Positions 16,451 through 52,307 of a DNA stretch of 64,000 nt are shown here, piece after piece (position 1 is the first letter of the stretch; the number at the start of each line of letters is the position of its first letter). The stretch is from the NCBI GenBank assembly GCA_040220235.1, contig JAVJTO010000102.1. One strand, written 5' to 3'. Source of the stretch: Coleofasciculus sp. B1-GNL1-01. Lineage in GTDB: Bacteria; Cyanobacteriota; Cyanobacteriia; Cyanobacteriales; Coleofasciculaceae. The notes under the pieces were generated by a model. The model was not told the DNA's origin, made no database searches, and saw only the letters and a list, made by a program, of their open reading frames with translations. Both the position numbers and the translations under genes were made by a program.

Positions 16451-17290
16451 ATGGGTGGTCTCAAACATTTTACCTACCTCGGTGGGATGACGCTAACGGT
16501 CGGGTTAGCGTTGGCTTTCACCGCACCTCAACTCAAAGCACAGTCGTTCGATATTAGTTTAGAGTTTCCTGAAGGAGAAGATATTGGTGCCCCTGAGAGG
16601 ACTGGCGGGGGAGGACAAAGAGGTATACCGAATATACCTTGTGTTACCGGAAATACAAGATTAACGGCGCTAACGCCAACGAATAATCTAATTACCACCA
16701 TATCCCCCAACCCTAAATTATTTTGGTATGTTCCCCCTACGACAGCCCAGTCAGCCGATTTTCTACTTTTGGACGAGCAAAACCAGGAAATTTATTATAC
16801 GAGGATACCCCTAACCCATAGAGCTGGTATCGTAGAACTCAAGCTTCCTGATCACATATCTCTGACAACGGAAAAACGGTATCTTTGGACATTTGCCTTG
16901 GTGTGTAATCCCGATGATCGCAGTCAGGATTATTTTGTTCGAGGCTGGATTCAGCGTCAACCCATTCAGACGGGAATCGCCCCACCCGAAGAACTGAACA
17001 CTCTTCTTGATCAACTCGTTTATGAACCCGAAGGGATCAAAAAACGTCTCCAAGACGAAGGATCTAACTATGCTCAAGAAAGGATTTGGGCAGAAACGCT
17101 GATGATTTTAGCTCGACTCTATCAGCAATTTCCCAATGACTCCGCGATCGCAGATGAGATGAAAGAATTGTTAACGTCGGTTGAGTTGGATAATATTCCA
17201 GTTAACTGTTGGGTTCACTCCTGTTCGGTTGAGACTCAAGATGCTGAGGAGACTCAAGATGCTGAGGCGATGAGAGAACTAAACGATTAA
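16451..17290 (+). CDS. DUF928 domain secreted protein
   Basis: Signal peptide, GGGQRG..C, PKLFWYVP and YLWTFALVCNPDDRS...GWIQR; 18-bp tandem duplication near the C-terminus (ETQDAE x2). Confidence 0.85.
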   Translation: MGGLKHFTYLGGMTLTVGLALAFTAPQLKAQSFDISLEFPEGEDIGAPERTGGGGQRGIPNIPCVTGNTRLTALTPTNNLITTISPNPKLFWYVPPTTAQSADFLLLDEQNQEIYYTRIPLTHRAGIVELKLPDHISLTTEKRYLWTFALVCNPDDRSQDYFVRGWIQRQPIQTGIAPPEELNTLLDQLVYEPEGIKKRLQDEGSNYAQERIWAETLMILARLYQQFPNDSAIADEMKELLTSVELDNIPVNCWVHSCSVETQDAEETQDAEAMRELND

Positions 17291-17304
17291 ATCTCTCAAA
17301 CTTA

Positions 17305-17367
17305 GTCGGGGTGGGTTTAGTCACATCAGAGTGACAACAAACGATAATGGTGAAACCCGCCCCTACA
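17305..17367. repeat. REP-like palindromic element GGGGYGGGTTT...AAACCCGCCCCTAC
   Basis: Related copies at 32431-32496, 29973-30041, 61072-61280 and 19778-19990. Confidence 0.75.
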
Positions 17368-17418
17368 GAGACGTCATGGCACATCTGGAACATTACACAC
17401 TCAAAACTCAAAACTCAG

Positions 17419-19731
17419 ATGTACAAATCCTGTAAGCGGTGGCTTTGGCAATGGCGCGGCGTTTGGATAGTTACCCCAACAGTTACGGGTTTAATCATTC
17501 TCCTGCGGTGGACTGGGATGCTGCAAACTTGGGAATGGACAGCTTATGACCAATATATGCGTTGGCGTCCCTCTGAACCCTTGGATCAGCGAATTGGAAT
17601 CGTGGGGATTGATGAGGCGGATGTGAAAAAAATTGGGCAACTTTCTCGATCTATTCTTCCCGATCAGATTTATGCCCAAGCTATTGCTAAACTCAAAACC
17701 CATAACCCTAAAGCCATTGGTCTGGATGTTTATCGGGATTTACCCGTACAACCGGGACATCAGGAATTAGTCCAAGTCTTTGAAACAACCCCCAATCTGG
17801 TGGGGATTGAGAAAGTGGTTGGCGATAAGCGCCAGGATGCTGTCGCCGCCCCCCCAGCCTTGAAAGCCAAAGGACAAGTGGGCGCTAATGATGTCATCTT
17901 TGATGCTGATACTAAAGTCCGACGGGCACTCTTACAAGTTGAAGATACCAATGGAGATGTTATTCCCAGTTTCGGATTTTATCTAGCACTTCTCTATCTT
18001 GATGCTCAAGGAATTAGCCCCAAACCAATACCAGGGGAACCCAATACCTGGCGGTTGGGAAAAAGCACGTTTTCTCGCTTCCAAAAAAATGATGGGGGTT
18101 ATGTCCGCACCGATGCTGGTGGCTACCAAATCTTATTAAATTATCGAGGGAGCAAGGAACATTTTGAAACGATCTCATTGCATGATCTTCTAGAGGATCG
18201 TATCCCTCCAGATTGGGGACGCGATCGCATTATTCTGATCGGCTTTGTCGGGGAGAGTTTCCAAGACTGGATTTTTACACCCTACAGTAGTAGTTGGTTT
18301 GCTTTGCCCGAACGCATGTCTGGGGTGGAATTACATGCTAATATTACCAGTCAAATCCTTAGTGCGGCTTTAGAAGGACGTCCCCTCATTCAAACTTGGT
18401 CTCAACGGCAAGAAAGCCTTTGGATTTTTTTCTGGTCTACTGTAGGCGCTATTGTAACCTGGCAGGGACGCTATCAGAAGAAAAGGCGACGGGTATCTGT
18501 GCAACGATTTTTGAGGCTGATCCTGGCAGGGGGTGTCCTGTTGGCTAGTACTTATGGGGCGTTTTTAATTGGGTGGTGGATTCCTGTCGTTCCGCCTCTT
18601 TTGGCTTTATCGGGTTCAGTGGTGGCGATTACCAGTTATCTTGCCCATCAAGGGAGTAAAATCCGCGAAACCTTTGGACGTTATCTCACCAATGAAGTTG
18701 TGGCGAATGTTTTAGAAAATCCTGAAGGGGCTAAATTAGGTGGTGAACGGCGCACGATTACTATCTTAACGTCAGATTTAAGAGGGTTTACTGCCCTGAC
18801 TGAACGTTTAATGCCAGAAGAAGTGGTGAATATTCTCAACTTTTATTTTGGCACGATGACGGATGTGATTACTCAATACCAAGGAACAATTGATGAATTT
18901 CTTGGGGATGGAATTTTGGTTTTGTTTGGTGCGCCGACGCTTCGTGAAGATGACGCCCAACGTGCGATCGCTTGTGCCGTGGCGATGCAGTTGGCGATGA
19001 CATCGGTCAATGAACGCATGAAACATCTGGGTTTACCTCCGTTGACTATGGGCATTGGGATTAATACGGGAGATGTTGTAGTCGGAAATATTGGGTCATC
19101 GAAACGAACAAAATATGGAGTAGTGGGTTCTCAGGTTAATTTAGCCTATCGCATCGAATCCTATACGACAGACAGTCAAATTTTTATCTCTCAGTCTACT
19201 CTAAATGCTGCGGGAACTTGGGTGAGAATTGATGGCAAGATACGGGTTCAACCTAAAGGATTACCCGAACCTATTCCCATTTATCAAGTGGGAGGAATTG
19301 GCAAACCTTACTACTTGTTTTTAGCTAAACCTGACGAGCATTTTCTGCCGTTGGTTGAGCCTATTCGTTTACATTACACTTTTTTGGAAGGTAAGCATGT
19401 CAGTGATCTGTTTTTTCGGGGGAGTTTAGTAAAACTGTCTGCCAAAGGTGGCGAAATCCGCTCAGAACAAGTCATGACTCCTTTGACAAATATAAAAATA
19501 AATTTACAGGTTGATGATCGGTTAATCTCAGTAAGTGAAGATATTTATGCCAAAGTGTTAGATCAGCCCAGCGATGAGCATTCGTTTTATATTCACTTCA
19601 CTTTTTTGCCGCCGAATGTAGAAGCGATGTTATCTAATTGCTATAAGTTACTGCGTCAACTTCAGGACGAAAGTTCGGAACCGGAAACAGGGAACAGAGA
19701 ACAGGACAATAAAAGTTCTTCTATTTTATGA
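17419..19731 (+). CDS. CHASE2-domain class III nucleotidyl cyclase (Cya2-like, probable guanylate cyclase)
   Basis: CHASE2 (IGIVGIDEAD, AIGLDVYRD, GVELHAN), TM helices and cyclase domain (SDLRGFT, IDEFLGDGIL, GSQVNLAYRIES). The longer ORF start lies inside a REP element, so ATG 17419 is preferred. Confidence 0.88.
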   Translation: MYKSCKRWLWQWRGVWIVTPTVTGLIILLRWTGMLQTWEWTAYDQYMRWRPSEPLDQRIGIVGIDEADVKKIGQLSRSILPDQIYAQAIAKLKTHNPKAIGLDVYRDLPVQPGHQELVQVFETTPNLVGIEKVVGDKRQDAVAAPPALKAKGQVGANDVIFDADTKVRRALLQVEDTNGDVIPSFGFYLALLYLDAQGISPKPIPGEPNTWRLGKSTFSRFQKNDGGYVRTDAGGYQILLNYRGSKEHFETISLHDLLEDRIPPDWGRDRIILIGFVGESFQDWIFTPYSSSWFALPERMSGVELHANITSQILSAALEGRPLIQTWSQRQESLWIFFWSTVGAIVTWQGRYQKKRRRVSVQRFLRLILAGGVLLASTYGAFLIGWWIPVVPPLLALSGSVVAITSYLAHQGSKIRETFGRYLTNEVVANVLENPEGAKLGGERRTITILTSDLRGFTALTERLMPEEVVNILNFYFGTMTDVITQYQGTIDEFLGDGILVLFGAPTLREDDAQRAIACAVAMQLAMTSVNERMKHLGLPPLTMGIGINTGDVVVGNIGSSKRTKYGVVGSQVNLAYRIESYTTDSQIFISQSTLNAAGTWVRIDGKIRVQPKGLPEPIPIYQVGGIGKPYYLFLAKPDEHFLPLVEPIRLHYTFLEGKHVSDLFFRGSLVKLSAKGGEIRSEQVMTPLTNIKINLQVDDRLISVSEDIYAKVLDQPSDEHSFYIHFTFLPPNVEAMLSNCYKLLRQLQDESSEPETGNREQDNKSSSIL

Positions 19732-45320: not shown

Positions 45321-45644
45321 TTATAAAAAAACAGCCACACTGTTCATTTCAGAGGGCTGGACAGCCGTGTTCAATGATAATTCAGCACCATTCTGTTCAG
45401 ATTCTTCGCTCGATAAACAAGCAATCGCTGGCTTGTTAATACAAAGAGATGGCATTGTTGCCAAGAGATGCTGATTCTCACTATACACTTCTACATCCGT
45501 GAGAGTTATAAAATTACGAGAACTATTCAACAGATCCGAAATATTAAAACTGGAACGATAGTAATTTAAGGAGGTACTAATGGTCAGTATCCCTATAATT
45601 TGAAGGTTATTGACTGTTAAAAGTTTAACTCTCAGTTCTCTCAT
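45321..45644 (-). CDS. Hypothetical protein (DUF6812-like)
   Basis: IIGILTI..ISDLLN...FITLTDVEVY..LCINK pattern; its start overlaps the stop of the upstream ORF. Confidence 0.7.
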   Translation of the reverse strand: MRELRVKLLTVNNLQIIGILTISTSLNYYRSSFNISDLLNSSRNFITLTDVEVYSENQHLLATMPSLCINKPAIACLSSEESEQNGAELSLNTAVQPSEMNSVAVFL

Positions 45645-45901
45645 TAACTCACTCCTGCCAAATCAACAATTACCGTATTATCATCCCTGAAAATCAAGAG
45701 GTTGTCTGGAAAAGGGCGGGACTCTTGTTGCACCTGACCCTCCATTACAGCATTTTGCAAATTCATGAACGCTTGGAGGTCTTGTGAGTCATATTTGCTT
45801 CTAAGTAGCTGTCGCAGTTGGTCTTCAGCTTCTCTGGTGAGATAGCGTGTCTTTAGTGCCTGTTGAACAATCTCACGAATCAACATGATTCTAGTCCCCA
45901 T
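45644..45901 (-). CDS. Conserved small cyanobacterial hypothetical protein
   Basis: LIREIVQQAL..YLT.EAE.QLRQLL...DLQAFMNLQ.A.M.G.V.QESR pattern. Confidence 0.75.
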   Translation of the reverse strand: MGTRIMLIREIVQQALKTRYLTREAEDQLRQLLRSKYDSQDLQAFMNLQNAVMEGQVQQESRPFPDNLLIFRDDNTVIVDLAGVS

Positions 45902-45962
45902 CTTACCCTTTCATTAGGTTCTCAACTTCAGCAGGTGCATTTTATGCAAAAGTCGGATATTT

Positions 45963-45980
45963 GTTACAAATCTTTACATA
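45963..45980. promoter_or_regulatory. HLR1 motif (RpaB-type binding site) GTTACAAA-TC-TTTACATA
   Basis: Perfect match to (G/T)TTACA(T/A)(T/A)-N2-(G/T)TTACA(T/A)(T/A); second HLR1-like site in opposite orientation at about 46126-46154. Confidence 0.6.
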
Positions 45981-46260
45981 AGTCATTTGTCATTTGTCCT
46001 TGGCTACCCCATCTCCCTGCTCCCCCTGCTCCCCCTGCTCCCCCTGCTACCCCTGCTACCCCTGCTTCCAAACGTTCCACCGGAACGTCGCTGCAACCCC
46101 TGCTTCGCACCTCCATACCGCCGCTTTTGTTAAAATTTTGTAAAGATTTGTTCCACCTTGCATAAAATCGCCCCTGAGTTCGTGAGACCTCTATGAACAG
46201 AGTGAAGTCGGTGTATCAACGCAATCCCATGTAACTGATGTACCAACCCTACCGCTATCG

Positions 46261-46911
46261 ATGAATGTCATAGACCAACAGTTAAAGCAACTGGCACAGG
46301 AAGCACAGCAGCATCCTCCCCGTAGTAAACAACGACAGCAAGCTTTAGCCAAGCTATTGGGTGCCATTCAGCAGTCAGGTAAACTGACTCGTCCCTATCC
46401 CGGACAATTCCATGGATTTTATGAGGATATTTATGATGAAGCCAAGCAACGCCTATTTTGTTATATTTGCGAAAGGATTGACGACTATAATCCCAGTTTT
46501 GAAGTTTTACAATGGGTAAACTTTCTGCTCAAGCAACGATTCTTCATGGAAGCCAGTCGTTCTATGATGCCAACCGTGCATAAAGGAATCGATGCCAAAC
46601 AAGTCAAGCGTTTAACCTTGGATGACTTAGAGAAAAACAATCCAGCCGAAGTTAACCCGCAGTTGACGCCTTCCTTGTCCCAAGAAATCATTCACTACCT
46701 AGAAACTGACCCCGAAGGACTCTTTAATCAAACCTATACGTCAAATCAACCTGCCGCCAACTTCCAATTTTTAGCTTTGAAACTTTTATCCGGTTATTCC
46801 TGGAAAGAAATTTCTGAAGAACTCGGAATTAAGATTTCAACCTTAAGCAGTTTCTACCAGCGTTGCTTAACTAAATTTAGTCCCAAGTTAAGAGAATACT
46901 TATCATCATAA
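46261..46911 (+). CDS. Sigma-70/ECF-like RNA polymerase sigma factor
   Basis: Region-2-like DIYDEAKQRLFCYICERIDDYNP..VLQWVNF and region-4 HTH GYSWKEISEELGIKISTLSSFYQRC. Confidence 0.8.
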   Translation: MNVIDQQLKQLAQEAQQHPPRSKQRQQALAKLLGAIQQSGKLTRPYPGQFHGFYEDIYDEAKQRLFCYICERIDDYNPSFEVLQWVNFLLKQRFFMEASRSMMPTVHKGIDAKQVKRLTLDDLEKNNPAEVNPQLTPSLSQEIIHYLETDPEGLFNQTYTSNQPAANFQFLALKLLSGYSWKEISEELGIKISTLSSFYQRCLTKFSPKLREYLSS

Positions 46912-46931
46912 TCCCTGAGGCACAGAATACA

Positions 46932-47873
46932 ATGTTCCACACCACGAATGAACCCCTAATACTGACCGTACCCCTGACGTTAGAAGCCCATCAAATCGCT
47001 CAACAGTTTCACCAAAAGCATTGCCCCCAAAAGGCAAAACAAGTTTACCTAAATACGTTAGCCGTTTATGCTGTCAAAACCTCTTTACAATGCCTAGAAA
47101 TTCCGACAAACTGGCAGGCGAGTGATAGTTGGAATCCAATTATGCAAACCCTGACTAATACAGCCGACTTATTGATTAAAGATCTGGGCAAATTAGAATG
47201 CCGTCCTGTCTTACCCAACGCGGCTAGCTGTCATATCCCCGCAGACGTATGGTCTGACCGGATTGGGTATGTCGCGGTTGAGTTGAATCAAACCTTAACG
47301 GAAGCCAAGTTACTGGGATTTTTACCCAGCGTTAAAACCGAGGAAGTCCCCCTAACTCAACTTATATCACTGGAACATTTATTAGACCATCTTAACCCAT
47401 CTCAACAACCAATACAACTTAGTCAATGGCTACAAAATATTTTTGATGCGGGTTGGCAGACTGTCGAAACATTATTCGACTCCTCGCCAACAGAACTCGC
47501 TTTTAATTTTAGAACATATACGCAAATAGCCACCCACTTATCCGAACCATCCGATCTGAAAATCACACGTGGGAAGCGGCTGACATTAGGACGACGATAT
47601 GATGATGAACAAGTCATATTAGTCATAAATTTGACACCACTTTCCGTATCAGAACTCGATATTTCGGTTGAAATATATCCAACGAACGGTCAAACCTATT
47701 TACCTAAAAATTTGCGGCTGATGATTCTCGATGACACGGGAGAAACCGTGATGCAAGCTGAAGCCAGAAGCACTAAGCAAATTCAATTACAGTTTAGTGG
47801 AGAACCTGGAGAATGCTTCAAAGTTAGGGTAGCGTTAGCTGATATCAGCATGACGGAAACCTTTATCATTTGA
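46932..47873 (+). CDS. DUF1822 family protein (candidate anti-sigma factor)
   Basis: KAKQVYLNTLAVYAV, GKLECRPV, DRIGYVAV, LSQWLQNIFDAGWQ and QFSGEPGECF motifs. Confidence 0.88.
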   Translation: MFHTTNEPLILTVPLTLEAHQIAQQFHQKHCPQKAKQVYLNTLAVYAVKTSLQCLEIPTNWQASDSWNPIMQTLTNTADLLIKDLGKLECRPVLPNAASCHIPADVWSDRIGYVAVELNQTLTEAKLLGFLPSVKTEEVPLTQLISLEHLLDHLNPSQQPIQLSQWLQNIFDAGWQTVETLFDSSPTELAFNFRTYTQIATHLSEPSDLKITRGKRLTLGRRYDDEQVILVINLTPLSVSELDISVEIYPTNGQTYLPKNLRLMILDDTGETVMQAEARSTKQIQLQFSGEPGECFKVRVALADISMTETFII

Positions 47874-48013
47874 ATAGACCCTTCGCTAGGACATATCCAG
47901 AAAAATTCAAATCGCTTGATCCTGAGCGAAGTCGAAGGGTCAATCCCTTGTAAGGTAAGCTTTTGTCTTCACTATTGCCTATTGCCTGTTCCCTGTTCCC
48001 TGTTCCCTGAAAA

Positions 48014-50353
48014 ATGACAAATGACACCACCCACAAAAAATTAGTAACTTTGAAACTCGATGGTGATTTTCAAAGCCATGGATTTCGGGTCACATTAGCC
48101 ATTGGTTGGGATGGCGCACCCCCAGATATTGAACTCAAAGGAGTATTAGACGCAGCGCCTGAATTTGCCGATCGCATCCAGTCTCATTGGCAGCATAAGT
48201 ATCGGTGCATTAGCGCCCCCTATCGAATTAAACCGAAAAAAATTATCTATGATGGTTCAGTAAGTCAGCGGCTGAGAGACTGTCAAGACTCCGCCAATGA
48301 ATTAGGCGATCGCTTGCGAACCTGGTTAGACGGGGAAGGGTTTCGCCCCCTGGATCGGCGGTTACGGGAATCCCTCAGTCGTCAGGATACGATTCGCTTC
48401 TTAGTCAGCACCACTGATCCGCACCTGCAAAAACTTCCTTGGCATTTGTGGGATTTTTTTGACCATTATCCGAAAGCGGAACTCGCCTTAACTGATCCTC
48501 AGTTTGAACGTCCGTCCCAATTCACCTCAAATCAGCGCACGCCTAAGGTAAAAATTTTAGCCATTCTCGGTCATAGCCAGGGAATTGATATTGAAAGCGA
48601 TCGCCAGTTACTTGAAAGTTTACCCCATACCGATATTAAATTTTTAGTCGAAAAAAGCCGCCGAGAGATTAATGACCAACTTTGGGAAAAACAGTGGGAC
48701 ATCATTTTTTTTGCCGGACATAGTGAAACCGAAGGGGAAACCGGGCGGATTTATATTAATCAAACCGATAGTTTAACCATTGATGAACTCTGGTATGCGT
48801 TAAGAAAAGCCGTAGAACGAGGGTTAAAACTTGCTATTTTCAACTCCTGCGATGGCTTAGGATTAGCCCGACAACTGGATGATATCCAAATTCCGCAAAT
48901 GATTGTCATGCGGGAGTTAGTTCCCGATCGCGTGGCGCAAGAGTTCTTGAAGTATTTTCTCACTGCCTTTGCTCAAGGTCAACCCTTCTATCTAGCCGTC
49001 AGAGACGCCAGAGAACGATTACAGGGATTAGAAAGTCAATTTCCTTGTGCGAGTTGGTTACCCGTAATTGTCCAGAATCCCACCCAAGTTCCGCCCAGTT
49101 GGAACGACTGGATTAGCGACACTACCGCCAAACCCGTTAAGCGGAGACGGCGAGGTTGGCAATTGGTACTGGGTGCGAGTGTCATGGTTACCAGTTTAGT
49201 CATGGGAGTGCGATCGCTAGGTTGGTTGCAATCGGTAGAACAGCAAGCCTTTGACCAACTCTTGGAAATGCGTCCCACACCCTCCCTTGATCCTCGGTTA
49301 TTGATAGTTGAGGTAACGGCTAAAGATATCAACAATTTAGGGGGTGAATATCCGCTACACGATCGCACCCTGCTCAAACTATTACAAAAACTGGACACCT
49401 ATCAACCCCGCGCCATCGGCTTAGATATCTTTCGCGATCGCCCAGAGGGGGAAGGGCGGGATGAATTGGTACAATATCTGCAAACGAGCGATCGCGTGAT
49501 TCCCATTTGTGTTATCCCCTCTCCCCAAATCCCCGAAGGCGTTGCTGCGCCCCCTGAAGTCCCCAAGGAACGCTTAGGATTTGCTGATATTGTTGTTGAT
49601 CCAGATGGGATTGTGCGGCGTCATCTCATCGCCATGAAACCGCCCGCCGTATCCTCTTGTTCCACTTTCTATTCCCTGAGTTTTCAATTAGCCCTACGAT
49701 ATCTACAAACCGAGGGAATCTCACCTGAATTTATTTCCGAAGATCGCTGGCAATTGGGTTCAGTGACGTTAACCAATTTAAATGCCAACCCCGGATTTTA
49801 CCAGCGCGGTGTCGGATTGGAAGGATTTCAACTCTTACTTAATTACCGTTCCCCAGAATTGGCAAAAACCATGGTAGAACGAGTAACGCTGAGTGATATT
49901 TTTGCCAATCGCGTGAATCCTGATTTTTTGCAGGATAAAATTATTTTAATTGGCATAACTGATCCCACAATTAAAGATGAATTCCAAACGCCTGGTAATC
50001 ATGAAATGCGGGGGCTATTCCTGCATAGTCAGATGGTCAGTCAGATTATTAGTGCGGCTGTGGGAGAACGCCCCTTGCTGGCGTTTTTCCCTCTATGGGG
50101 GGATCTCGTCTGTGTTGGGATTGGGTCAGTTATTGGAGGTGCGATCGCATGGCGCTATCGAGAGTCCCTGTTACGCCTGGGATTAGCCGTGGGAGTCTCT
50201 ATGATAACGATTAATGGTATTAGCTGGTTTATTTTCATTCAAACTGGGAGTATATTATCCATGGTTCCAGTAATGCTAGCTGTAGTTGCCACAAGTGGAA
50301 GTCTAGTGGCTTACCAGGCATTTAAAACGTCGCGATCCGATCAAACCCCTTAA
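48014..50353 (+). CDS. CHAT (caspase-like protease)-CHASE2 membrane protein
   Basis: LPWHLW, catalytic His FFAGHS and Cys IFNSCDG, TM, CHASE2 (AIGLDIFRD, DPDGIVRRHL) and three C-terminal TMs. Confidence 0.9.
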   Translation: MTNDTTHKKLVTLKLDGDFQSHGFRVTLAIGWDGAPPDIELKGVLDAAPEFADRIQSHWQHKYRCISAPYRIKPKKIIYDGSVSQRLRDCQDSANELGDRLRTWLDGEGFRPLDRRLRESLSRQDTIRFLVSTTDPHLQKLPWHLWDFFDHYPKAELALTDPQFERPSQFTSNQRTPKVKILAILGHSQGIDIESDRQLLESLPHTDIKFLVEKSRREINDQLWEKQWDIIFFAGHSETEGETGRIYINQTDSLTIDELWYALRKAVERGLKLAIFNSCDGLGLARQLDDIQIPQMIVMRELVPDRVAQEFLKYFLTAFAQGQPFYLAVRDARERLQGLESQFPCASWLPVIVQNPTQVPPSWNDWISDTTAKPVKRRRRGWQLVLGASVMVTSLVMGVRSLGWLQSVEQQAFDQLLEMRPTPSLDPRLLIVEVTAKDINNLGGEYPLHDRTLLKLLQKLDTYQPRAIGLDIFRDRPEGEGRDELVQYLQTSDRVIPICVIPSPQIPEGVAAPPEVPKERLGFADIVVDPDGIVRRHLIAMKPPAVSSCSTFYSLSFQLALRYLQTEGISPEFISEDRWQLGSVTLTNLNANPGFYQRGVGLEGFQLLLNYRSPELAKTMVERVTLSDIFANRVNPDFLQDKIILIGITDPTIKDEFQTPGNHEMRGLFLHSQMVSQIISAAVGERPLLAFFPLWGDLVCVGIGSVIGGAIAWRYRESLLRLGLAVGVSMITINGISWFIFIQTGSILSMVPVMLAVVATSGSLVAYQAFKTSRSDQTP

Positions 50354-50357
50354 ACCT

Positions 50358-51125
50358 ATGATTGCACTAAAATTTGCTTTAATCCTGGCGATAACCGTTC
50401 TTGAATTGACAATTCATCGACCACTGGTTCAAGCACATCCGATTCAAAAAATAGCAAGTCTTAAACAAGATCCACCCGTTTGGGATAGACCGAATGATGA
50501 TCGCAAACCTGCCGGAACTCGTGGACCTTGTGAACAGACCGAACAACCGTTTACACCGTTATTACCCATTACCGACTCTGACTACAAGTTTTCTGGCTTT
50601 ACATTAAAAGCTTACCCCACATTTTGGTTTTATATTCCCTATCCGAGTAACACAATTAATCGAGGATCATTCGTTATCAAAGATTCACAGGATGAGACTC
50701 GAAACTATCAGGTTAGTTTCCAGCTTCCAGAAACACCAGGTTTTGTCAAAATTAGCTTGCCGATTACTGCCATTCCCCTAGAATTGAATAAACAATATCG
50801 TTGGCAGTTCACCCTATATTGTACATCCAATGATCCGACGGATTTATCTCAAAGCATTTGGCATAACGGCTCAATTGAACGCCTTGATCCTCAGCGTTTA
50901 GAACCTCAGACAGCAACAGCCTTGGTAATGGATCAGATGAAGTTTTATCAAGATAATCGTCTTTGGTACGATATTTCAGCCGATTTAGTCCAAATCTATG
51001 ACTTTCCTCTGGCTTGGCGTTATTTATTAAGAACGATAGATTTGGAGGAACTCAAAAAAGAACCGATCGCAGGTTCAGTTCAGCCTATTGGTGATTCTAA
51101 TGAAATCTTAGGAAACCGGGAATAG
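50358..51125 (+). CDS. DUF928 domain secreted protein
   Basis: Signal peptide, AGTRGPC, YPTFWFYIPY, YRWQFTLYC and LWYD motifs. Confidence 0.85.
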   Translation: MIALKFALILAITVLELTIHRPLVQAHPIQKIASLKQDPPVWDRPNDDRKPAGTRGPCEQTEQPFTPLLPITDSDYKFSGFTLKAYPTFWFYIPYPSNTINRGSFVIKDSQDETRNYQVSFQLPETPGFVKISLPITAIPLELNKQYRWQFTLYCTSNDPTDLSQSIWHNGSIERLDPQRLEPQTATALVMDQMKFYQDNRLWYDISADLVQIYDFPLAWRYLLRTIDLEELKKEPIAGSVQPIGDSNEILGNRE

Positions 51126-51323: not shown

Positions 51324-52307
51324 TTAACGAACAATACAAACACCCCCGACTTGTACGGTACAAGCTTCTGGTTTCTTAACAGGTTCTAAACTCTGGGTAC
51401 TGGCGTTGTAAGTATATTCCCCCGCCGGAAAAACTCGGTTAGGATCGGTACAATAGCGATAGGTTTGTCCACCTTCGGGATAGGAGATAACGACTAAAGA
51501 ACTGGTTGCTGGAGGACAGGTATCGAGTACATTTAATCCATACTCGTCTTCCAATTTTTCTTGGCGAGGATCGGTCGTTTGATTGGCGGCGGTTTGAGTT
51601 CCCGGACGTCCCGGCTTTAAGGTTTCCGTACTTGCGTCGTAGGTATACTGTCCAGCTTGCAGGAAACGGTTAGGATTGGCGCAATAGGTATAGGTTTGAT
51701 CCGATTCCGGAAACGACACAACCACTAACGAACCCGTCGCCGCTGGACAGTTTTCCAAGACTCTCAATCCATATTCATTTTGTAGCAGTTGTTTTCGTTT
51801 ATCTGGGGTTTGATTTGAAGCGGAGGGTTGATTTGAGGGATTATTAACGATAACTCCCGGTGTAATTCCGGAAAGGGAAACCGTATATCTGCCTCTGGTA
51901 TTATTGTCACCTAAGACGAGGAGTTTATATTCGCCACTGATGGGGACTTGATAAACTAACAGATTGGTTTTGTCATTGTAGGCAACTTGGTTGCCCGTTT
52001 GTGAGGAACTCAGGACTAAAATGGGTGAGAGAGTACTACCTTCTTCGGGTTTAACGCTGATGCGAACGGTATCCCCTTGTTGGGCATTAAATCGGTATTC
52101 TTCACCAGCAGCAGTTTCCAGGGGGGCGTTGGGTACTAAATCGTTGCGATAGCGGAAGCTGGAAGAGTTGGTTTGGATAAACCCCCTAATGCTATCATTA
52201 TTGTCTAGCATCGTGGCGGCGGTGGCGGTATGGGTAAGAATGGATAAGATGAATCCGCTGATAGCGAATGGGGTAGCGATTCGGTTAATAACGGTTTGGG
52301 TAAACAT
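51324..52307 (-). CDS. Secreted protein with PPC-like domain and two Cys-containing repeats
   Basis: Signal peptide, EYRFNAQQGDTVRI..GEYKLLV..GRYTVSL, and duplicated EYGL.VL..CP.AT.SLVV.S.PE..QTY.YC..PNR. Confidence 0.78.
   Translation of the reverse strand: MFTQTVINRIATPFAISGFILSILTHTATAATMLDNNDSIRGFIQTNSSSFRYRNDLVPNAPLETAAGEEYRFNAQQGDTVRISVKPEEGSTLSPILVLSSSQTGNQVAYNDKTNLLVYQVPISGEYKLLVLGDNNTRGRYTVSLSGITPGVIVNNPSNQPSASNQTPDKRKQLLQNEYGLRVLENCPAATGSLVVVSFPESDQTYTYCANPNRFLQAGQYTYDASTETLKPGRPGTQTAANQTTDPRQEKLEDEYGLNVLDTCPPATSSLVVISYPEGGQTYRYCTDPNRVFPAGEYTYNASTQSLEPVKKPEACTVQVGGVCIVR

What the first reader, a model, noticed from the sequence alone, without database searches (positions are those of the whole stretch)
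46261..51125. Sigma factor / DUF1822 / CHAT-CHASE2 / DUF928 operon: putative caspase-like-protease trans-membrane signalling cascade
Seen: four co-oriented genes (gaps 20, 140 and 4 bp). They encode a sigma-70-like protein, a DUF1822 protein, a cytoplasmic CHAT domain with intact His (FAGHS) and Cys (FNSCDG) joined through a TM to an extracytoplasmic CHASE2 sensor, and a secreted DUF928 protein. Established: CHAT proteases release regulators by cleaving an inhibitor in the Csx29/Csx30/CASP-sigma (type III-E CRISPR) system and in the HetF/PatU3/HetZ system. Inference: DUF928 or a ligand activates CHASE2, CHAT cleaves DUF1822 (anti-sigma) and the sigma factor is freed. This would be a CRISPR-independent, receptor-linked proteolytic sigma switch.
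Basis: partly seen in the sequence, partly recalled or inferred. Interest (0 to 1): 0.75.

Follow-up and report, generated by a model that had tools for sequence, protein, structure and literature searches.

The report
Caspase-gated sigma switch with swappable sensors
Four neighbouring cyanobacterial genes, a set catalogued by computer in 2021 but apparently never tested, encode a membrane sensor fused to a caspase-like protease, a sigma-type transcription factor and a partner predicted to hold that factor inactive; the protease likely cuts the partner at one conserved arginine, which would let an outside signal control a few genes, mostly for secreted proteins.

Summary
Kaur et al. 2021 catalogued EACC2-caspase(CHAT)-CHASE2 genes beside an ECF sigma and DUF1822 and proposed self-cleavage. 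This scan noted the cassette before on other DNA. I found no experimental test. Evidence here: gene 1 folds as an ECF sigma. A complex model clamps sigma regions 2 and 4 with the DUF1822 N-domain (0.84, best control 0.00). In a distant family that domain caps membrane proteins beside ECF sigmas, without CHAT. DUF1822 has a near-invariant Arg (118 of 133) in a disordered linker, placed like the HetF cut site of PatU3, and this CHAT is close to HetF. The sensor is swappable: six triads in this genome carry CHASE2, binding-protein or TPR modules. DUF928 follows CHASE2, not the triad. A bipartite promoter-like motif precedes the sigma gene, a divergent two-gene unit and secreted-protein genes. Best model (0.55): signal-gated cut after Arg194, degradation of the fragment, sigma release. 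Cleavage, signal and sign of control are untested.

The parts
46261..46911 (+). Divergent ECF-type sigma factor (216 aa; region 2 about 1-100, region 4 about 135-216)
   Evidence: AF2 pLDDT 85.2; best structural match SigC region 2, Z 10.1, rmsd 2.0, 83 aligned, and rows 1-7 are all sigma factors; sub-threshold HMM hits
46932..47873 (+). DUF1822, predicted soluble anti-sigma: N-terminal alpha/beta domain (about 9-185, restriction-endonuclease-like fold), disordered linker 189-204, C-terminal Ig-like beta-sandwich (about 210-313)
   Evidence: Pfam; AF2 pLDDT 90.9; fold searches; complex with sigma
47511..47513 (+). Codon of DUF1822 Arg194 (context AFNFR-T), candidate P1 residue for the CHAT cut
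   Evidence: Arg in 118 of 133 and 61 of 64 homologues while neighbours vary; pLDDT under 50; parallels PatU3 Tyr116-Arg117/Ser118
48014..50353 (+). Membrane receptor-protease: N-terminal alpha+beta region (EACC2 by position), CHAT domain (His236 at 48719-48721, Cys279 at 48848-48850), TM 384-402, CHASE2, C-terminal TM helices
   Evidence: Pfam; His and Cys in 80 of 80 homologues, Cys partly by the search pattern; profile vs this genome's HetF 98.7%, E 2e-16; hydropathy
48224..48226 (+). Codon of Arg71, an almost invariant Arg in a variable loop of the N-terminal region; candidate self-cleavage or auto-inhibitory (pseudo-substrate) residue
   Evidence: 79 of 80 homologues, 37 of 38 after dereplication; followed by Pro in 14 of 80
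50358..51125 (+). DUF928, probably exported accessory of the CHASE2 sensor, not part of the three-gene core
   Evidence: Pfam; hydrophobic N-terminus; next to 54 of 68 CHASE2 forms and 0 of 6 others; within 1 kb of 14 of 24 CHASE2 hits genome-wide
46158..46198 (+). Predicted autoregulated promoter: TTGCATAAAA, 16 nt, GAGA, 62 bp before the sigma start
   Evidence: Motif found de novo upstream of 56 dereplicated sigma genes; this site was in the training set
45909..45949 (-). Second copy of the motif, back-to-back, aimed at the divergent genes
   Evidence: 27.4 bits, not in the training strand; kept in 7 same-genus genomes and 4 close metagenome contigs; similar back-to-back sites in other genera
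45644..45901 (-). 85-aa conserved cyanobacterial protein of no Pfam family; candidate target gene
   Evidence: ORF; no family; a homologue also follows a back-to-back site in L038
45321..45644 (-). 107-aa DUF6812 protein, overlapping the 85-aa gene by one base; candidate target gene
   Evidence: Pfam DUF6812 E 4e-10

Best explanation
The locus encodes an ECF-fold sigma factor, a partner predicted to hold it inactive (DUF1822) and a membrane CHASE2 sensor fused to an intact caspase-like CHAT domain that likely cuts the partner after Arg194 when the sensor's state changes, which would free the sigma. Steps: (1) shown: gene order, folds by model, intact dyad, interchangeable sensor modules among six paralogous triads. 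(2) Predicted: the DUF1822 N-domain clamps sigma regions 2 and 4. (3) Inferred: the C-terminal beta-sandwich docks on the protease and the disordered F-R/S linker is cut, as HetF cuts PatU3 after Arg117. (4) Inferred by analogy with CalpT and Csx30: the N-fragment is degraded, releasing sigma. (5) Predicted: sigma reads TTGC(A/G)TAAAA-N16-GAG(A/T)-N7-AGA promoters, driving its own operon, the divergent 85-aa/DUF6812 pair and secreted-protein genes (haem peroxidase with a PEP-CTERM-like tail; TpsA and TPR-CHAT genes in other genera). DUF928 likely tunes the CHASE2 input; Arg71 may gate the protease.
For: Complex model sigma:DUF1822 scored 0.84, best of 3 controls 0.00; this mark was reached by 116 of 157 solved and 2 of 215 mismatched pairs; runs agree in at least 76% of contacts; partner pLDDT at least 80; my own alignments were used. 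The interface is DUF1822 9-155 on sigma 20-71, 115-143 and 172-214. Independent context: in 5 of 5 fetched loci of a distant small-genome family, the DUF1822 N-domain caps a 930-1220 aa single-TM protein followed directly by an ECF sigma, with no CHAT hit in 9 kb. Two different sigma clades (about 216 aa and about 400 aa) pair with DUF1822; sigma lies upstream in 21 of 21 DUF1822-anchored metagenome loci, several redundant. Arg194: 118 of 133; 46 of 49 beside CHAT genes, the other 3 with FR/LR shifted by alignment. The CHAT profile matches HetF, an Arg-specific protease. PatU has an invariant Arg (30 of 30; 141 residues from the end in 11, as for PatU3 Arg117) ahead of a beta-rich domain weakly similar to DUF1822's (E 0.002; score 24.5 vs at most 20.0 in 60 shuffles). 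Promoter motif: 34 of 56 in approximate leave-one-out above the 99th percentile of 599 controls; 35 further sites in the loci, 33 outside long ORFs, 11 of them the same same-genus site; strict pattern 17 matches in 13 of 21 genomes vs 0 for the reversed pattern. Sequence distances: sigma tracks the DUF1822 N-domain better than the C-domain (r 0.57 vs 0.33); CHAT tracks the C-domain slightly better (0.57 vs 0.49); kinship inflates all of these.
Against: No cleavage, binding or transcription is shown. Ten of 64 loci have DUF1822 without an adjacent sigma, five of them with a TPR-CHAT gene in its place. One paralogue in this genome has Met at the Arg194 column, with an RF just upstream. Only 3 of this genome's 6 short-type sigma genes carry a strong upstream site, and at 14-20 bits genome-wide hits do not exceed column permutations. 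The DUF1822-PatU profile match is weak (probability 4-12%, N-terminal halves unmatched), and the Atlas scores (0.83) are leads only. The DUF1822 N-domain keeps Asp79, Glu89 and Arg91 on a nuclease-like fold, which a pure anti-sigma would not need. In Anabaena HetF cleavage is constitutive, so the sign of control is open.
Confidence: 0.55

Rival explanations
1. Self-cleavage model (Kaur 2021): the receptor's CHAT processes itself, for example at Arg71, and DUF1822 is an uncut adaptor that releases or hands over the sigma by a change of partner.
For: Proposed in PMC8195603 section 9. Arg71 is almost invariant in a variable loop (79 of 80). The predicted sigma interface does not include Arg194.
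Against: It does not explain the invariant Arg in DUF1822's disordered linker or its PatU3-like placement. Arg71 is followed by Pro in 14 of 80, which proteases rarely cut (established knowledge), fitting an inhibitory plug better. The two sites are not exclusive.
Confidence: 0.17
2. Same parts, opposite sign: the CHAT cuts DUF1822 constitutively and keeps sigma on; ligand or DUF928 binding to CHASE2 shuts the protease off.
For: PatU3 is undetectable in wild type because HetF cuts it continually (PMC9457339 passages). No sequence feature fixes the sign.
Against: A dedicated autoregulated ECF with six paralogous sensor-fused copies fits inducible responses better (inference). A candidate auto-inhibitory Arg71 suggests a resting off state.
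Confidence: 0.13
3. Conflict or cell-death system: the DUF1822 N-domain is a PD-(D/E)xK-fold nuclease unleashed by the cut, and the sigma is its inhibitor or a secondary output.
For: Best fold matches of the N-domain are I-Ssp6803I (Z 9.2, rmsd 2.9, 113 aligned) and Holliday junction resolvases (Z 8.0). Asp79 127 of 133, Glu89 131 of 133. Kaur et al. frame EACC2 systems as counter-invader systems.
Against: The catalytic Lys position is Arg (115 of 133), and Z 8-9 is near the level common arrangements reach. The same domain sits on membrane proteins beside ECF sigmas. The predicted targets are secreted or envelope proteins. Loci are conserved in the genus rather than hypervariable.
Confidence: 0.08
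4. The genes are merely co-transcribed; the CHAT has another substrate and the sigma is controlled otherwise.
For: Six of 73 CHAT loci lack DUF1822, and this genome has a sigma paralogue (C47) and a DUF1822 gene (C17) with no CHAT beside them.
Against: The triad is kept through sensor swaps, inversions (7 loci) and replacement of the sigma clade; the complex model passes.
Confidence: 0.05

Closest known systems
EACC2-caspase neighbourhoods with ECF sigma and DUF1822 (Kaur, Iyer, Burroughs, Aravind 2021, PMC8195603; section 9 read whole, supplement rows seen)
   Same: Constant alpha+beta plus caspase module, variable C-terminal sensor including CHASE2 with TM helices, adjacent ECF sigma and DUF1822 genes, cyanobacterial range. 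The supplement lists 'EACC2+CASPASE+CHASE2+TM+TM' after DUF1822-family genes.
   Different: The paper proposes autopeptidase activation, calls DUF1822 a TPR protein and names no substrate, cut site, promoter or DUF928. The model here gives DUF1822 an alpha/beta plus beta-sandwich architecture with no helical repeats.
HetF - PatU3 - HetZ of Anabaena PCC 7120 (PMC9457339 and PMC13342950; first 10,000 characters and passages read)
   Same: Membrane-anchored cytoplasmic CHAT; Arg-specific cut in a soluble inhibitor encoded right after an ECF-type sigma; similar aromatic-Arg/Ser site ahead of a beta-rich C-domain.
   Different: Not orthologues: this genome has its own hetZ, patU and hetF elsewhere. 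Here the protease is in the operon and carries CHASE2 or binding-protein sensors; the sigma is 216 aa without HetZ's insertions; the promoter differs from HetZ's TCCGGA.
Type III-E Csx29 - Csx30 - CASP-sigma (PMC10028731, passages)
   Same: CHAT protease, two-domain inhibitor whose N-terminal domain binds an ECF sigma and which is cut downstream, positive autoregulation.
   Different: Triggered by target RNA through Cas7-11; no membrane sensor; no PADLOC hit or sequence similarity seen here.
CalpL - CalpT - CalpS (bioRxiv 10.1101/2024.05.08.593097, passages)
   Same: Anti-sigma cut in an unstructured linker; the N-fragment must be degraded before sigma is released.
   Different: Lon-type protease switched by cyclic oligoadenylate; the CalpT N-domain is MazF-like.
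Myxococcus DdvA - DdvS (PMC11506125, passages)
   Same: CHAT domain, membrane and ECF sigma in one pathway.
   Different: The CHAT is periplasmic and part of a transmembrane anti-sigma; here it is cytoplasmic and the inhibitor is soluble.

Membership tests
EACC2-caspase neighbourhood (Kaur 2021) | Caspase/CHAT domain with catalytic His-Cys | tested here: met
   Pfam CHAT above cut-off; His236 and Cys279 present
EACC2-caspase neighbourhood (Kaur 2021) | N-terminal EACC2 alpha+beta domain before the caspase | tested here: inconclusive
   A conserved 120-residue region precedes the CHAT in the paralogues and homologues, but no EACC2 profile or alignment was available (no Pfam hit; none among the supplement's alignment files)
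EACC2-caspase neighbourhood (Kaur 2021) | Variable C-terminal sensor, such as CHASE2 with TM helices | tested here: met
   CHASE2 here; binding-protein, PstS-like, TPR, STAND-WD40 and kinase-CHASE2 forms in paralogues and homologues
EACC2-caspase neighbourhood (Kaur 2021) | Adjacent ECF sigma and DUF1822 genes | tested here: met
ECF (group 4) sigma factors | Only regions 2 and 4, joined by a short linker | tested here: met
   Model has both domains, matched to ECF sigmas; HMM scores are below cut-off
ECF (group 4) sigma factors | Binds core RNA polymerase and directs transcription from a bipartite promoter | not testable with these tools
   Only a candidate promoter motif
HetF-PatU3-HetZ | Orthology to hetZ, patU and hetF | tested here: not met
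   No HetZ model hit for gene 1 and HetF model 23.6 vs 1200 bits; better orthologues lie on C154 and C74
HetF-PatU3-HetZ | Inhibitor homologous to PatU | tested here: inconclusive
   C-domain profile match E 0.002-0.01, probability 4-12%, above all shuffles; N halves unmatched; reciprocal Atlas leads at 0.83
Protease-gated anti-sigma systems (works-like) | Inhibitor binds sigma regions 2 and 4 | tested here: met
   By model only: score 0.84, best control 0.00
Protease-gated anti-sigma systems (works-like) | Cognate protease cuts the inhibitor and frees sigma | not testable with these tools
   Indirect: conserved linker Arg and HetF-like CHAT
Type III-E Craspase locus | Cas7-11/CRISPR association and Csx29/Csx30 homology | tested here: not met
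   No PADLOC hit for the six genes; no cas gene among the ORFs of 38-60 kb by inspection

The most novel reading that the evidence does not exclude
Cyanobacteria run a large, modular class of one-step transmembrane signalling: receptor-fused caspases with plug-in sensors cut a soluble anti-sigma of a new structural class (a nuclease-fold domain) at one arginine. DUF1822 and PatU share an ancestor, so the heterocyst-patterning circuit HetF-PatU3-HetZ is a specialised offshoot of this family. Arg71 is a built-in plug that keeps the protease off until the sensor moves it.
Probability: 0.3. Interest if true: 0.8.

Novelty: new member of a known kind. Interest (0 to 1): 0.52.

Why it matters
DUF1822 has over 2,000 clusters at 50% identity and up to nine matches per genome, with no function in print that my searches found. 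If the model holds, it gives CHAT-sensor proteases a substrate and output outside CRISPR. It also names a new anti-sigma domain, offers a reporter (the promoter) for finding CHASE2 and DUF928 ligands, and points to an origin for the HetF-PatU3-HetZ developmental switch. The predictions are residue-level and cheap to test.

Tried and rejected
Expression: three metatranscriptome runs and one unlabelled run cover the operon, but only as contigs, with flat depth over intergenic and opposite-strand DNA and records up to 109 kb, so DNA carry-over cannot be excluded; not used. Sequence searches of the PDB found no solved relative of the sigma or the CHAT region. Foldseek on DUF1822 gave only generic Ig-like matches; CalpT, Csx30 and TRADD-N were not listed, which excludes nothing. 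My first idea that the N-domain is MazF-like, as in CalpT, was not borne out. The 'TPR protein' label for DUF1822 does not fit the model. The sigma-70 promoter and terminator scan was at chance level. Genome-wide motif counts at 14-20 bits did not exceed permutations; only sites of 24 bits or more did (6, one of them a training site and one inside an ORF, vs at most 1 in 20 permutations). PatU could not be folded (both jobs used), and no CHAT:DUF1822 or CHASE2:DUF928 model was run (one complex job). Whether Kaur's 'TM+beta_rich+TPRs' gene after the CHASE2 gene is DUF928 was not checked; supplement file 13 was not searched and file 4 is cut. Literature searches: DUF1822 (2 papers), DUF928 (8, 1), HetF/PatU3/HetZ/CHAT/sigma, EACC2 (16), CalpT terms, CHASE2+caspase+cyanobacteria, CHAT+anti-sigma+PatU3 (103), Csx30 terms, CHASE2 ligand, ECF+caspase+anti-sigma. 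None showed an experimental study of this cassette; subscription papers are largely outside the library.
Full report
Observation. Pfam confirms DUF1822, CHAT, CHASE2 and DUF928 above cut-off. Gene 1 scores below the sigma cut-offs, but its model has ECF regions 2 and 4: best match SigC region 2, Z 10.1, rmsd 2.0 over 83 residues, with Foldseek ranking ECF sigmas first though none at E under 0.001. The closest named relatives are filamentous cyanobacteria of the Coleofasciculaceae.

What is already in print. Kaur et al. 2021 (PMC8195603, section 9 read whole) describe a constant EACC2-plus-caspase module with variable C-termini, CHASE2 with TM helices among them, mostly beside an ECF sigma and a DUF1822 gene. 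They propose autopeptidase activation, and their supplement lists such operons. HetF cuts PatU3 between Arg117 and Ser118 (PMC9457339, passages). HetZ is an ECF sigma and PatU3 its potential anti-sigma (PMC13342950, passages). Ten searches, listed under Tried and rejected, found no experiment on this cassette. Earlier notes of this scan report the same cassette in at least 12 genomes; they prompted my tests of the linker Arg and the promoter.

Core and accessory. This genome holds six sigma-DUF1822-CHAT triads. Three carry CHASE2, each followed by DUF928; the others carry a branched-chain-amino-acid-type binding protein, a PstS-like domain, or TPRs. Among the best 80 of 598 CHAT relatives, biased to close CHASE2 forms, DUF1822 lies upstream in 67 of 73 loci with enough flank and a sigma is next to it in 54 of 70. 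DUF928 accompanies 54 of 68 CHASE2 forms and 0 of 6 others, and all four genes occur in 33 of 61. Seven loci have the sigma-DUF1822 pair inverted, and a second sigma clade of about 400 aa replaces the short one in many. Genome-wide, 14 of 24 CHASE2 hits have DUF928 within 1 kb (chance about 1.6%), 11 of them without CHAT. So the core is three genes, and CHASE2 plus DUF928 is a plug-in input.

DUF1822 as anti-sigma. The model (pLDDT 90.9) shows an N-terminal alpha/beta domain, a disordered linker (189-204) and an Ig-like sandwich. With paired alignments of 64 and 63 rows, the sigma:DUF1822 complex scored 0.84 against a best control of 0.00. That mark was reached by 116 of 157 solved and 2 of 215 mismatched pairs; the runs agree in at least 76% of contacts and partner pLDDT is at least 80. 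The interface uses DUF1822 9-155 and both sigma domains, including the region 4 helix-turn-helix. This is support, not proof. Independent context agrees. In one distant family of 1.6-2.3 Mb genomes (35 of 40 with a match; probably non-photosynthetic relatives, my inference), 5 of 5 fetched loci have the DUF1822 N-domain at the head of a single-TM protein directly followed by an ECF sigma, with no CHAT hit nearby. A TonB-C-like end was seen in 2 of 4 scanned, and 3 of 3 sigmas scanned pass TIGR02937.

The likely cut. Arg194 is kept in 118 of 133 and 61 of 64 homologues in an otherwise variable, disordered linker, usually as F-R-S. The CHAT dyad is intact in 80 of 80, Cys partly by selection, and the profile matches this genome's HetF at 98.7%, E 2e-16. 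PatU, found behind this genome's own hetZ, has an invariant Arg in 30 of 30 loci. It lies 141 residues from the end in 11 of them, with SYR-SPET in two, matching the mapped PatU3 site. The beta-rich C-domains of PatU and DUF1822 align weakly (E 0.002-0.01, probability 4-12%) but above all 100 and 60 block shuffles. Each family is the other's top Atlas lead at 0.83, below the trust line. I rate common ancestry at about even odds. Because the sigma interface ends before Arg194, release probably needs degradation of the N-fragment, as shown for CalpT and suggested for Csx30. A second Arg, Arg71 of the receptor, is kept in 79 of 80 and followed by Pro in 14, which fits either self-processing or an inhibitory plug.

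The likely output. A bipartite motif, TTGC(A/G)TAAAA-N16-GAG(A/T)-N7-AGA, emerged upstream of 56 dereplicated sigma genes (of 88). In an approximate leave-one-out test 34 of 56 exceed the 99th percentile of 599 random upstream regions. The window has one copy 62 bp before the sigma gene and a second, back-to-back, aimed at an 85-aa gene and a DUF6812 gene. In 1.13 Mb of loci, 35 of 85 sites lie away from sigma genes, 33 of them outside long ORFs, and 11 are the same same-genus site. Others precede TpsA, TPR-CHAT, PPC-domain and RTX-repeat genes. A strict pattern matched 17 times in 13 of 21 related genomes and never when reversed; 7 matches precede a secreted haem peroxidase. Weak sites are not enriched genome-wide, and only 3 of this genome's 6 short-type sigma genes have a strong site. 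Which paralogue reads which site is open.

Against. Nothing is shown at the bench, and the RNA data were uninformative. Ten loci have DUF1822 without an adjacent sigma. The N-domain resembles PD-(D/E)xK nucleases (Z 9.2 and 8.0) and keeps two acidic residues, though Arg replaces the catalytic Lys. HetF acts constitutively, so the sign of control may be inverted.

Verdict. A real, conserved locus and a member of a neighbourhood catalogued in 2021. It most likely works like HetF-PatU3-HetZ without being its orthologue: receptor-gated, Arg-specific cleavage of a soluble anti-sigma (0.55). Rivals are self-cleavage with an uncut adaptor (0.17), inverted sign (0.13), nuclease effector (0.08) and mere co-transcription (0.05). 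Interest 0.52: not a new gene set, but an untested, widespread signalling class with residue-level predictions.

Noticed in passing
window 16451-19731 (+): A second DUF928 gene directly before a CHASE2-adenylate/guanylate cyclase gene, with no CHAT fusion.
   Followed up: partly
L186-L190 (e.g. L186:3122-6590): In small-genome relatives the DUF1822 N-domain heads a 930-1220 aa protein with a very acidic linker, one TM helix and a TonB-C-like end, followed by an ECF sigma: a candidate undescribed transmembrane anti-sigma type.
   Followed up: partly
L179:679-2484 (-), G000 C94: A strong motif site lies 465 bp before an ECF-like sigma gene followed by a 258-aa gene whose 'PGEIW' start recalls MazF/PemK folds (recalled, no family hit). 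It could be a CalpS/CalpT-like pair outside CRISPR and a second tier of the cascade.
   Followed up: partly
window 45966-45981 and 46136-46151: A 16-nt element (94% complementary inverted pair) sits upstream of each of the two divergent motif sites, about one helical turn different in spacing; possible shared regulator site.
   Followed up: no
L001:4332-8737 (G000 C47): An orphan sigma paralogue (59% identical), kept across the genus without an adjacent DUF1822; about 3 kb away is a gene holding only the DUF1822 linker and C-domain.
   Followed up: no
L003:5199-6127 and L004:4516-5426: Two sigma paralogues of about 305 aa carry a duplicated N-terminal region 2.
   Followed up: no
L094:130-2706; L184:1377-3137: The short sigma domain is fused to NACHT-HEAT repeats in one genome and embedded in a 580-aa protein behind a VWA-like gene (motif recalled) in this genome.
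   Followed up: no
L102, L103, L106, L110, L117: A TPR-CHAT gene takes the place of the sigma gene directly upstream of DUF1822.
   Followed up: no
L142:1462-3742 (G000 C154) and L008:2823-5237: This genome carries hetZ-patU and a hetF-like gene, plus two further HetZ-related genes.
   Followed up: partly
window 51324-52307 (-): A 327-aa protein with a signal-peptide-like start, a repeated C-terminal Cys-containing unit and no clear family converges on the operon end.
   Followed up: no
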